Shown here piece by piece: positions 2,058-64,000 of a DNA stretch of 64,000 bases. The notes under the pieces were generated by a model, which saw only the letters and a list, made by a program, of their open reading frames with translations, had not been told where the DNA came from and did not search any database. Location: assembly GCF_009914755.1 (NCBI RefSeq), contig NC_060933.1; one strand, written 5' to 3'. Both the position numbers and the translations under genes were made by a program. How positions within the stretch are numbered: position 1 is the first letter of the stretch; every line of letters starts with the position of its first letter. This DNA comes from the human T2T-CHM13v2.0 reference genome, Homo sapiens.

Positions 2058-2072
2058 ATTCCGGAAGATTCC
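2058..2072. promoter_or_regulatory. Perfect three-unit heat-shock element motif aTTCc-gGAAg-aTTCc (first of about 45 copies; others e.g. 2911, 3714, 4742, 6485, 10501, 13535, 13640, 14433, 17250, 18088, 29199, 40341, 47282, 63593)
   Basis: ATTCCGGAAGATTCC matches nTTCnnGAAnnTTCn exactly. HSF1 binding to SatIII in nuclear stress bodies is established; occupancy of these particular sites is not shown by the sequence. Confidence 0.6.
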
Positions 2073-3728
2073 ATTCCATTGCATTCCATTCCATGCCATT
2101 CCCCTGCACTCGCGTTGATTCCATTCCATTCCATTCCATTCCATTCCATTCCATTCCATTCCATTCCGTTCCGTTCTGTTCCATTCCATTCCATTCCATT
2201 CCATTCCATTCCGTTCCGTTCCATTCCATTCCATTCCATTCTATTCGGGTTAATTCCACTCCATTCCATTCGATTGCAATCGTGTTGATTCCATTCCATT
2301 CCATTCCATTCCATTCCATTCCATTCCATTCCTTTCCATTCCATTACGGATGATTCCATTCCATTGCATTCCATTCCATTCCATTCCCCTGTAATCGGGT
2401 TGATTCCATTCCTTTGCATTCCAATCCATGCCCTTCCACTCGTGTTGATTCCATTCTTTCCATTCCATTCAAGTTGAATCTTTTCCATTGCATTCCATTC
2501 CATTCGATTCCATTCGATTGCACTCGGGTTGATTCCATTCCATTGCATTCCATTCCATTCCATTCCATTCCATTTCATTCCGTTCCATTCCATTACATTA
2601 CATTCGGATTGATTCTATTCAATTCCCTTACACTCCATTACATTCCATTCCATTCGGGTAGTTTCCATTCCATTCCATTCCATTCCTCTTCATTCCATTG
2701 CACTCGGGTTGATTCCATTCCATTGCATTCCATTCCATTCCATTCCGTTCCATTCCATTCCATTACATTCGGATTGACTCTATTCAACTCCCTTAGTCTC
2801 CATTACATTCCATTCCATTCGGGTTGTTCCATTCCATTCCATTCCGTTCCACTCCATTCCATTGCACTCGGGTTTATTCCATTCCATTCCATTCCATTCC
2901 ATTCCATTCCATTCCGGAAGATTCCATTCCATTGCATTCCATTCCATTCCATTCCCCTGCACTCGCGTTGATTCCATTCCATTCCATTCCATTCCATTCC
3001 ATTCCATTCCATTCCATTCCATTCCTCTCCGTTCCATTCCATAACATTCCATTGCATTCCATTCCATTCAACTCCATTCCAATCCATGCCATTCCACTCG
3101 TGTTGTTTCCATTATTTCCATTCCATTCAAGTTGAATCCATTCCATTGCATTCCATTCCATTCCATTCGCCTGCACTCGCGTTGATTCCATTCCATTCCT
3201 TTCCATTCCATTCTATTCCATTCCGTTCCGTTCCATTCCATTCCATTCCATTCCTTTCCATTCCGTTCCGTTCCATTCCATTCCATTCCATTCCATTCGG
3301 GTTAATTCCATTCCATTCCATTCGATTGCAATCGAGTTGTTTCCATTCCATTCCATTCCATTCCATTCCGTTCCATTCCATTCCATTACATTCGGATTGA
3401 TTCTATTCAATTCCCTTACACTCCATTACATTCCATTCCATTCTTGTAGTTTCCATTCCATTCCATTCCATTCCTCTCCATTCCATTGAACTCGGGTTGA
3501 TTCCATTCCATTGCATTCCATTCCATTCCATTCAATTCCTTTCCGTTCTATTCCATTCCATTACATTCGGATTGATTCTATTCAACTCCCTTACTCTCCA
3601 TTACATTCCATTCCATTCGGGTTGTTCCATTCCATTCCATTCCATTCCACTCCATTCCATTGCACTCGGGTTTATTCCATTCCATTCCATTCCATTCCAT
3701 TCCATTCCATTCCATTCCGGAAGATTCC
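2058..3728. repeat. Two examples of the ~0.8-0.9 kb ordered motif cycle (basic higher-order unit)
   Basis: CCGGAAG anchors at 2058, 2911 and 3714, with a largely shared spacer order between them (the second cycle is partly rearranged). Similar spacings: 17250-18088, 29943-30740-31628, 32447-33290, 42816-43684, 46454-47282. Confidence 0.75.
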
Positions 3729-61300: not shown

Positions 61301-61600
61301 CCATTCCATTCCAATCCATTGCATTCCATTCCATGCGATTCCACTCGGGTTGATTCCTTTCCTTTGCATTCCATTCCATTCCATTCCATTGCATTCCATT
61401 CCATTCCATTCCGTTGCATTCCATTCCATTACATTCGGATTGATTCTATTCAACTCCCTTACTCTCCATTACATTCCATTCCATTCGGGTTGTTCCATTC
61501 CATTCCATTCCATTCCACTCCATTCCATTGCGCTCGGGTTGATTCCATTCCATTCCATTCCATTCCATTCCATTCCGGATGATTCCATTCCATTGCATTC
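58330..61600. repeat. Diverged paralogous blocks, about 58330-59370 and 60590-61600 (offset ~2.26 kb)
   Basis: Shared GATTGCCATCGAG, GGATGACTCC (58414/60675), CCATTCGGTTCCGTTGC (58492/60753), GCAATGGAG, CCTTGCATTCC and GACTTCATTCC. Confidence 0.8.
58581..58594. other. 14-bp perfect palindrome TCCATTGCAATGGA at the uninverted paralogue of the junction's right arm (another copy at 60842-60855)
   Basis: Self-complementary sequence, followed by GTTTATTC(CATTC)4CGGATG, identical to 943 onward. Confidence 0.88.
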
Positions 61601-64000
61601 CGTTCCATTACATTCCCCTGCACTCGCGTTGATTCCATTCCATTGCATTCCATTCCATTCAATTCCATTCCATTACAATTCGTTCCATTCCATTCTATTC
61701 CGTACCATTCCATTCCATTCCATTCCATTCCGTTCCATTCCGTTCCATTCCATTCCATTCTATTCGGGTTAATTTCATTCAATTCCATTCCATCCCATTC
61801 TATTACATTCCATTGCAATCGAGTTGAATCCATTGCATTTCATTCCATTCCATTACATTCCATTCCATTCCGGAAGATTCCATTCCATTGCATTCCATTC
61901 CATTCCATTCCCCTGCACTCGCGTTGATTCCATTCCATTCCATTCCTTTCCATTCCGTTCCATTCCATTCCGTTCCGTTCCATTCCATTCCATTCCATTC
62001 CATTCCATTCCATTCCATTCCGTTCCGTTCCATTCCATTCCATTCCATTCTATTCGGGTTAATTCCATTCCATTCCATTCGATTGCAATCGTGTTGATTC
62101 CATTCCATTCCATTCCATTCCATTCCATTCCATTCCATTCCTTTCCATTCCATTACGGATGATTCCATTCCAATGCATTCCATTCCATTCCATTCCCCTG
62201 TACTCGGGTTGATTCCATTCCATTCCAATCCATGCCATTCCACTCGTGTTGATTCCATTCTTTCCATTCCATTCAAGTTGAATCCATTCCATTGCATTCC
62301 ATTCCATTCGATTCCATTCAATTGCACTCGGGTTGATTCCATTCCATTGCATTCCATTCCGTTCCATTCCATTCCATTCCATTCCTTTCCGTTCCATTCC
62401 ATTCCATTACATTCGGATTGATTCTATTCAATTCCCTTACACTCCATTCCATTCCATTCCATTCGGGTAGTTTCCATTCCATTCCATTCCATTCCTCTCC
62501 ATTCCATTGCACTCGGGTTGATTCCATTCCATTGCATTCCATTCCATTCCATTCAATTCCATTCCGTTCCATTCCATTCCATTACATTCGGACTGATTCT
62601 ATTCAACTCTCTTACTCTCCATTCCATTCCATTCCATTCGGGTTGTTCCATTCCATTCCATTCCATTCCACTCCATTCCATTGCACTCGGGTTGATTCCA
62701 TTCCATTCCATTCCATACCATTCCATTCCATTCCATTCCATTCCATTCCATTCCATTCCATTCCGTTCCATTCCGTTCCATTCCATTCCATTCCATTCTA
62801 TTCGGGTTAATTCCATTCCATTCCATTCCATTCCATTCTATTCCATTCCATTGCAATCGAGTTGAATCCATTGCATTTCATGCCATTCCATTCCATTCCA
62901 TTCCATTCCGGAAGATTCCATTCCATTGCATTCCATTCCATTCCATTCCCCTGCACTCGCGTTGATTCCATTCCATTCCATTCCATTCCATTCCATTCCA
63001 TTCCATTCCGTTCCGTTCCGTTCCATTCCATTCTATTCCATTCCATTCCATTCCATTCCTTTCCGTTCCATTCCATTCCATTCCATTCTATTTGGGTTAA
63101 TTCCATTCCATTCCATTCGATTGCAATCGAGTTGATTCCATTCCATTCCCTTCCATTCCATTCCATTCCTTTCCATTCCTTTCCATTACATTACGGATGA
63201 TTCCATTCCATTGCATTCTATTCCATTCCATTCCCCTGTACTCGGGTTGATTCCATTCCATTACATTCCAATCCATGCCATTCCACTCGTATTGAATCCA
63301 TTCTTTCCATTCCGTGCAAGTTGAATCCATTCCATTGCATTCCATTCCATTCGATTCCATTCGATTTCACTCGGGTTGATTCCATTCCATTGCATTCCAT
63401 TCCATTCCATTCCATTCCATTCCGTTCCATTCCATTCCATTACATTCGGATTGATTCTATTCAACTCCCTTACTCTCCATTACATTCCATTCCATTCGGG
63501 TTGTTCCATTCCATTCCATTCCATTCCACTCCATTCCATTGGACTCGGGTTGATTCCATTCCATTCCATTCCATTCCATTCCATTCCATTCCATTCCGGA
63601 AGATTCCATTCCATTGCATTCCAATCCATTCCATTCTCCTGCACTCGCGTTGATTCCATTCTATTCCATTCTATTCCATTCCATTCCCTTCCTTTCCGTT
63701 CCATTCCATTCCATTCCATTCCATTCCATTCCGTTCCGTTCTGTTCCGATCCGTTCCATTCCATTCCATTCCATTCTATTCGGGTTAATTCCATTCCATT
63801 CCATTCGATTGCAATCGAGTTGATTCCATTCCATTCCATTCCAATCCATTCCATTCCATTCCATTCCTTTCCATTCCATTACGGATGATTCCATTCCATT
63901 GCATTCCATTCCATTCCATTCCCCTGTACTCGGGTTGATTCCATTCCATTCCATTCCAATCCATGCCCTTCCACTCGTGTTGATTCCATTATTTCCATTC

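What the first reader, a model, noticed from the sequence alone, without database searches (positions are those of the whole stretch)
2058..63607. Periodic perfect heat-shock elements created by one spacer variant, with a one-base on/off sister motif
Seen: ATTCCGGAAGATTCC equals nTTCn-nGAAn-nTTCn, about 45 copies by eye (roughly one per 1.4 kb). It usually occurs once per 0.8-0.9 kb cycle and is followed about 30-45 bp later by CCCCTGCACTCGCG. The abundant sister ATTCCGGATGATTCC differs by one base (GAA to GAT). Variants at 5601, 6810, 23803, 30740 and 35078 keep the core; those at 10821, 25970 and 41164 break it. Established: HSF1 trimers bind inverted nGAAn arrays, which plain (GGAAT)n lacks, and HSF1 drives SatIII transcription and nuclear stress bodies. 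Inference: this spacer may be the actual HSF1 docking code, and its density may set which HSat3 arrays nucleate stress bodies. The site has a central CpG and overlaps an ETS-type CCGGAAG core, allowing methylation or factor competition.
Basis: partly seen in the sequence, partly recalled or inferred. Interest (0 to 1): 0.7.

Follow-up and report, generated by a model that had tools for sequence, protein, structure and literature searches.

The report
Chromosome 9 satellite's heat-shock docking site
One variant repeat in the giant chromosome 9 satellite spells a perfect heat-shock-factor binding sequence about 13,000 times, while most other sampled arrays of this satellite nearly lack such sequences, which likely explains why chromosome 9 gathers HSF1 into nuclear stress bodies.

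Summary
The motif is real: 41 exact ATTCCGGAAGATTCC and 46 perfect three-unit heat-shock elements (HSEs) in the window (0.6 expected from shuffles), plus 45 GAT sisters. Spacing is irregular, not periodic. The genome holds 12,700 exact copies. In a rare-flank subsample 78 of 79 lie in the chr9 HSat3 array. The family is about 31% of all 41,953 TTCYRGAAnnTTC sites in the genome. It is one version of a ~58-bp module, likely derived from the GAT sister by one T>A change and then amplified. Y satellite samples carry three unrelated perfect HSEs at similar density (28 in 40 kb); 138 kb of other HSat3 samples hold 3. This matches the published primary stress-body sites, chr9 and Y. The idea is partly in print: perfect HSEs at Yq12, putative HSEs at 9q12 (unpublished remark), and HSF1 ChIP tracking motif density in HSat3. 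The exact word, its count, chr9 restriction and origin were not found in my searches. Binding at the word was not tested. 'On/off' is probably 'strong/weak', and the ETS idea is weak.

The parts
2058..63607 (+). 41 exact perfect HSE 15-mers (ATTCCGGAAGATTCC) dispersed in (ATTCC)n. Starts: 2058, 2911, 3714, 4742, 6485, 10501, 13535, 13640, 14433, 17250, 18088, 19172, 20656, 21926, 22754, 25297, 26633, 27072, 27472, 29199, 29943, 31628, 32447, 33290, 37644, 38872, 40341, 42027, 42816, 43684, 44472, 46454, 47282, 48825, 50737, 53736, 56602, 58064, 61867, 62905, 63593
2058..2114 (+). Example of the ~58-bp module: HSE 15-mer (2058-2072), 28-bp pentamer run, CCCCTGCACTCGCG marker (2101-2114)
967..61586 (+). 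45 GAT sister 15-mers (ATTCCGGATGATTCC) in the same module slot; first at 967-981; 8 of 9 HSE core bases
2343..2357 (+). Example of the third module version, ATTACGGATGATTCC (30 copies in the window), with first TTC unit broken
5601..5615 (+). Core-keeping variant ATTCCGGAATATTCT
6810..6824 (+). Core-keeping variant with CpG decay, ATTCCAGAAGTTTCC
23803..23817 (+). Core-keeping variant with CpG decay, ATTCCAGAAGATTCC
30740..30754 (+). Core-keeping variant with CpG decay, ATTCTGGAAGATTCC
35078..35092 (+). Core-keeping variant ATTCCGGAAGTTTCC
10821..10835 (+). Broken copy (third TTC altered)
25970..25984 (+). Broken copy (G of GAA altered)
41164..41178 (+). Broken copy (third TTC altered)
947..63973 (+). 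Host HSat3 array, (ATTCC)n, C-rich strand on +
   Evidence: chr9 HSat3B5 per hub annotation position

Best explanation
The 15-mer is a perfect three-unit heat-shock element present about 13,000 times, almost only in the chromosome 9 HSat3 array, and is likely the main high-affinity site through which HSF1 trimers load onto 9q12 and start stress-body formation. Steps. (1) Shown: (ATTCC)n supplies TTC at positions 0 and +10, so one GGAAG pentamer between them completes TTC-CG-GAA-GA-TTC, with the preferred pyrimidine-purine spacer and a purine before every GAA. (2) Shown: GAA, GAT and ATTAC-GAT are versions of one ~58-bp module. Inferred: GAA arose from GAT by one T>A change and spread by array duplication. 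(3) Inferred from HSF structures: each site holds one trimer. Sites are isolated (1 of 45 spacings under 200 bp), so avidity would come from density (~470 per Mb against ~8 per Mb elsewhere) and from weaker GAT and plain-pentamer neighbours. (4) From the literature: bound HSF1 recruits acetyltransferases and Pol II and yields SatIII RNA and stress bodies. (5) Inferred: Y reaches the same end with three unrelated HSEs per repeat unit; HSE-poor arrays act only as secondary sites.
For: 41 exact and 46 perfect sites in the window. 12,700 exact copies genome-wide, none listed on C1-C8. 78 of 79 rare-flank copies lie at C9:49.3-76.0 Mb. The family count is 13,038, against 41,953 TTCYRGAAnnTTC sites genome-wide. 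Of 18,438 HSEs in CCATTC..TTCCATT context, 13,038 are the chr9 family and 4,360 one Y word, leaving 1,040. Samples: Y 28 in 40 kb; chr15 0 in 50 kb; all non-9, non-Y HSat3 samples 3 in 138 kb. Primary stress bodies form on 9 and Y (PMC7889540). HSF1 ChIP is enriched where motif density is high in HSat3 (bioRxiv 2024.10.22.616524). Spacer and purine preferences are from PMC8379338. Origin: the array margin has 90 GAT to 1 GAA on + strand over 60 kb; GAA pairs with the CGCG marker 29 of 33 times, GAT with CGGG 28 of 39; GAA flanks diverge 1.3% against 3.7% for GAT.
Against: No binding was measured at this word. HSF1 binds pHuR98, described as non-canonical, though needing >12.5 ng against >3 ng for an HSE. 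HSF1 DBD has been crystallised on head-to-tail SatIII repeats (cited). Secondary stress bodies form on other SatII/III chromosomes (cited), and heat-shock RNA also maps to other HSat3 loci (short reads may mis-map). HT1080 and H460 cells form bodies on Y and not on 9, so the motif is not sufficient. Chr9 and Y are also the largest arrays, which confounds density with size; only chr15 partly breaks that tie. Non-9 sampling is thin (138 kb; acrocentric pieces of 4 kb each). Franklin et al. describe HSF1 motifs as confined to sub-regions, whereas my rare-variant lists span the whole array; I could not profile density finely.
Confidence: 0.7

Rival explanations
1. Bulk avidity: HSF1 binds plain head-to-tail pentamers and imperfect sites weakly everywhere, and array size alone makes chr9 and Y the primary sites; the perfect word adds little.
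For: In vitro binding to non-canonical pHuR98. DBD structure on head-to-tail SatIII (cited). TTC repeats at 10-bp steps number 150-670 per 10 kb in every array sampled, and one-mismatch sites outnumber perfect ones in the window 87 to 46. Secondary bodies on other chromosomes.
Against: HSF1 ChIP follows motif density within HSat3 rather than being uniform like TEAD4. The large chr15 array has 0 perfect HSEs in 50 kb and is not named a primary site in the papers read. In vitro reconstitution lit only chr9 at low HSF1.
Confidence: 0.15
2. Chromatin state or a cofactor selects the array, and the HSE words are permissive or incidental; methylation, nucleosome phase or a partner protein decides occupancy.
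For: HT1080 and H460 cells use Y, not 9, and HSF1 overexpression restores chr9 bodies in HT1080. The chr9 word has a central CpG, and 3 of 5 core-keeping variants in the window show CpG decay, implying germline methylation.
Against: Purified HSF1 binds 9qh on protease-treated chromosomes regardless of heat shock, pointing to DNA-encoded information. This rival can modulate the best explanation rather than replace it.
Confidence: 0.1
3. The word is a neutral satellite variant that is not bound by HSF1 in cells, or is mainly an ETS-factor site.
For: It can arise by one base change from GAT and spread by duplication without selection. Within the GAA class the key C of unit 3 is broken nearly as often as a neighbouring C (159 vs 198).
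Against: A neutral origin does not prevent binding, and the site fits all tested HSE rules. The ETS flank is poor (CCGGAAGT 1, CCGGAAGA 42, ACCGGAAG 0; ETS consensus recalled), and ETS motifs are mostly not enriched in HSat3.
Confidence: 0.05

Closest known systems
Canonical three-unit heat-shock element (nTTCn-nGAAn-nTTCn) bound by HSF1/HSF2 trimers (PMC8379338)
   Same: Three inverted units, pyrimidine-purine spacer in the tail-to-tail pair, purine before each GAA, adenine before the last TTC.
   Different: Not in a gene promoter; isolated single-trimer sites about 1.4 kb apart in heterochromatic satellite; CG rather than TA in the spacer; ~13,000 copies.
Perfect HSEs in Yq12 SatIII (DYZ1), Penin et al. 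2021 (PMC7889540)
   Same: Perfect HSEs interspersed in SatIII at a primary stress-body locus; similar density (7.0 vs 7.2 per 10 kb).
   Different: Y uses three unrelated words in my samples (four reported per 3564-bp clone) in a regular 3.56-kb unit; two lack CpG. Chr9 uses one word in an irregular mosaic.
HSF1 motif-dense sub-regions of HSat3, Franklin et al. (bioRxiv 2024.10.22.616524), and 'putative HSEs' at 9q12 (PMC9032817, unpublished observation)
   Same: HSF1 motifs exist within HSat3, including 9q12, and ChIP signal follows their density.
   Different: In the passages read neither gives the word, a count, the GAT sister, its origin, or the contrast with HSE-poor arrays; the review says the number of sites is unknown. 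Franklin's figures and supplementary data could not be seen.
pHuR98 (D9Z3) non-canonical HSF1 binding, Jolly et al. 2002 (PMC2173303)
   Same: Direct HSF1-DNA binding to chr9 SatIII that needs the DNA-binding and trimerisation domains.
   Different: That paper argued the NGAAN layout was non-canonical and proposed secondary structure; the assembled array holds thousands of canonical sites.

Membership tests
Canonical three-unit HSE | At least three alternating inverted nGAAn units | tested here: met
   46 TTCnnGAAnnTTC in the window; definition. No four-unit sites.
Canonical three-unit HSE | Pyrimidine-purine spacer in the tail-to-tail pair; purine before GAA | tested here: met
   Spacer is CG in 43, CA in 2 and TG in 1 of 46; rule.
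Canonical three-unit HSE | Bound by HSF1 trimer in vitro | not testable with these tools
   No protein-DNA assay available.
Canonical three-unit HSE | Occupied by HSF1 in heat-shocked cells and drives transcription | not testable with these tools
   Only region-level published support: ChIP follows motif density; heat-shock RNA across the chr9 array.
HSat3 (chr9 HSat3B5 array) | (CATTC)n backbone with divergent pentamers in the 27.6-Mb 9q12 array | tested here: met
   TRF period 5 over 947-63973; position from hub annotation; array size and name. Subfamily k-mer assignment was not rerun.
ETS-class site (CCGGAAGT-type; consensus recalled) | GGAA core with matching flanks (ACCGGAAGT) | tested here: not met
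   Core CCGGAAG present, but CCGGAAGT 1, CCGGAAGA 42, ACCGGAAG 0.
Element under purifying selection | Key bases mutated less than neighbouring control bases | tested here: inconclusive
   Key C vs neighbouring C: 159 vs 198 in GAA class, 627 vs 326 in GAT class, odds ratio 0.42. Copies are not independent and the GAA-only ratio is 0.80.

The most novel reading that the evidence does not exclude
The two primary stress-body addresses in the human genome were written independently by satellite turnover: one T>A change amplified ~13,000-fold on chr9 and three unrelated HSEs amplified on Y, together about 40% of the genome's best-fit HSEs and a heritable, copy-number-variable HSF1 sink. Because only the chr9 word has a CpG as its central spacer, methylation would switch cells between chr9 and Y bodies (as in HT1080 and H460), and the lower breakage of the key base in GAA copies would reflect selection.
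Probability: 0.2. Interest if true: 0.8.

Novelty: new member of a known kind. Interest (0 to 1): 0.55.

Why it matters
Since 2002 the sequence basis for HSF1's choice of 9q12 has been left open: non-canonical sites or DNA structure were proposed, and a 2022 review calls the number of sites unknown. One named word with a one-base sister in the same flanks, a GAT-only stretch of the same array and HSE-poor arrays gives built-in controls, so existing HSF1 ChIP reads can settle the question by k-mer counting without mapping. If true, about a third of the genome's best-fit three-unit HSEs sit in one array, which bears on HSF1 titration during stress and on variation between people in 9qh size.

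Tried and rejected
Strict 0.8-0.9 kb periodicity: rejected (13 of 45 spacings; no dominant lag in rare 16-mer distances). Multi-trimer clusters: no four-unit sites; 1 of 45 spacings under 200 bp. ETS site: flanks do not fit. Selection test: inconclusive; in the window 3 core changes among 49 GAA-class copies is about what the 1.3% flank divergence predicts. A first module tally pulled in unrelated pentamers (435 hits) and was replaced by exact-class counts. Five of 20 regions (L007, L014, L018, L019, L020) and 12 of 19 scouting pieces were not HSat3 and were dropped; L014 held one HSE in non-satellite DNA. Full-text search for the word itself: 137 papers hold a 12-letter form; none of the 30 listed titles concerns satellite DNA; the rest were not seen. 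No paper matched HSF1 with methyl-SELEX. Papers on HSE base substitutions were not held, so the size of the GAT effect rests on inference. No fine density profile along chr9 was obtained.

Full report
Observation. The window is HSat3: (GGAAT)n over 14-915 and (ATTCC)n over 947-63973. ATTCCGGAAGATTCC occurs 41 times; with five variants there are 46 TTCnnGAAnnTTC sites against 0.61 expected from 100 dinucleotide shuffles. All eight named variants are as described. The GAT sister occurs 45 times. Periodicity is overstated: 13 of 45 spacings lie in 780-870 bp, mean 1367, CV 0.63. The shuffle null is lenient because the backbone gives both TTC units and the copies share descent.

Anatomy. The word heads a ~58-bp module whose CCCCTG block begins 28 bp after the 15-mer in all three versions: GAA (41), GAT (45) and ATTAC-GAT (30). 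Among copies with that block in place, GAA goes with the CGCG marker in 29 of 33 and GAT with CGGG in 28 of 39, CGCG in 10. A 6-kb piece at the array margin (L021, C9:49.13 Mb) has 15 GAT-type modules and no perfect HSE. The + strand lists give 90 GAT and 1 GAA over C9:49.118-49.178 Mb. GAA flanks differ from their majority by 1.3% per site and GAT flanks by 3.7%. Inference: GAT is older, and GAA arose by one T>A change on a CGCG-marked copy and expanded later. No outgroup genome was available to confirm the direction.

Genome distribution. Exact GAA word 12,700, GAT 20,563. The tool lists only the first 100 places, so I subsampled by rare flank: 78 of 79 copies lie at C9:49.3-76.0 Mb and 1 at C20:0.59 Mb. 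These copies are not independent, as many recur at ~10.6 and ~8.7 Mb offsets. The first 100 places listed in each are all on C9. HSEs in CCATTC..TTCCATT context total 18,438: 13,038 chr9-family, 4,360 one Y word, 1,040 left, some being chr9 point variants visible. A search for one class of the remainder gave 17 scattered hits over eight contigs. The genome holds 41,953 TTCYRGAAnnTTC sites, so the chr9 family is about 31%; with the array at 27.6 Mb this is ~470 per Mb against roughly 8 per Mb elsewhere, after removing a Y share estimated from strand excess. Contig-to-chromosome names other than C9 are inferred from numbering and length.

Other arrays. Of 20 stretches of 10 kb, 15 were HSat3-like and 5 were dropped; 7 of 19 scouting pieces hit HSat3 and were extended to 4 kb. 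Perfect HSEs: Y 9, 5, 6, 8 per 10 kb from three words unrelated to the chr9 word; chr15 0 in 50 kb; chr20 0 in 20 kb; chr10 0 in 20 kb; chr17 0 in 10 kb; chr5 2 in 10 kb; chr13, 14, 21, 22 together 1 in 28 kb. In total 3 in 138 kb, against about 65 at mean chr9 density. The exact chr9 word was absent from all 20 stretches.

Mechanism. HSEs need three inverted nGAAn units, guanine most conserved, one unit per DNA-binding domain; a pyrimidine-purine spacer and a purine before GAA are preferred. The word meets all of these. GAT keeps all three guanines and two perfect units but changes one thymine whose methyl is contacted in the structures, so I infer weaker, not absent, binding. The CpG cytosines pair with the purines preceding GAA, at positions where thymine also fits the consensus, so methylation need not block binding; this is inference, and one search found no data. 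Sites are isolated, so I infer that stress-body nucleation comes from site density over megabases. Confidence 0.7 that this is the main high-affinity HSF1 site of 9q12.

Evidence against. HSF1 binds pHuR98, which its authors called non-canonical, at about four times the protein needed for an HSE. Secondary bodies form on other satellite chromosomes, and two male lines use Y but not 9. Heat-shock RNA maps across chr9 and also to other HSat3 loci. Chr9 and Y are also the largest arrays. The selection test is inconclusive: the key C of unit 3 is altered in 159 GAA and 627 GAT copies, a neighbouring C in 198 and 326 (odds ratio 0.42), but amplified variants are not independent, and within GAA the ratio is 0.80. 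A neutral origin with a real binding consequence is fully compatible with the data.

Prior work and what I saw. PMC2173303 (Jolly 2002): parts 1-2 of 4 of the text. PMC7889540 (Penin 2021): passages and part 1 of 4; four perfect HSEs in a Yq12 clone, with ChIP. PMC9032817 (2022 review): passages; putative HSEs at 9q12, unpublished, number unknown. bioRxiv 2024.10.22.616524 (Franklin): abstract, passages, sections 5 and 39; HSF1 motif ranked 15th, sub-regional, ChIP follows density; figures and supplementary data were not visible and may already show the chr9 and Y pattern. PMC8379338: passages and section 11. bioRxiv 2021.07.12.452052, PMC11622622, PMC10813801, PMC13634412, PMC13705371, PMC13340490: passages only. 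Eymery 2010 and Neudegger 2016: not seen, cited through. The word, its count, chr9 restriction and GAT origin were not found in searches; subscription journals are mostly outside the library.

Verdict. A real, new member of a known kind: a canonical HSE in SatIII. The concept is anticipated in print; the added value is the named word, the count, the matched one-base control and the array-by-array contrast, which make an old question directly testable. Interest 0.55.

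Noticed in passing
window 1-947: Strand switch from (GGAAT)n to (ATTCC)n near 940-946, an inversion junction; the chr9 array is reported to share over 200 such breakpoints with beta satellites.
   Followed up: partly
G000:C9, about 52-76 Mb (lists): Rare variants recur at offsets of ~10.6 Mb (57.762 and 68.385 Mb) and ~8.7 Mb (52.231 and 60.922 Mb), pointing to megabase-scale duplications inside the array.
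   Followed up: no
L006, L008, L009, L010 (C24, DYZ1): Three unrelated perfect HSEs per ~3.56-kb unit; two have no CpG and one has a CpG overlapping a core base. An exact GAT-type near site ATTCCAGATGATTCC occurs 12 times in 40 kb.
   Followed up: partly
L021 (C9:49130001-49136000): Array margin has the highest density of one-mismatch HSEs seen (36.7 per 10 kb) and no perfect one: a natural control region for HSF1 ChIP.
   Followed up: partly
L017 (C5:49.76-49.77 Mb): A small chr5 HSat3 array holds a few perfect HSEs of the form ATTCGGGAAGATTCC beside a GAT sister ATTCGGGATGATTCC, suggesting a separate GAT-to-GAA event.
   Followed up: no
window 13535-13697: A 105-bp local duplication gives the only close pair of HSEs (13535 and 13640).
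   Followed up: no
window, 18 copies: A further divergent word, ACTCGGAACGATTCC, carries a GAA one base out of HSE register.
   Followed up: no
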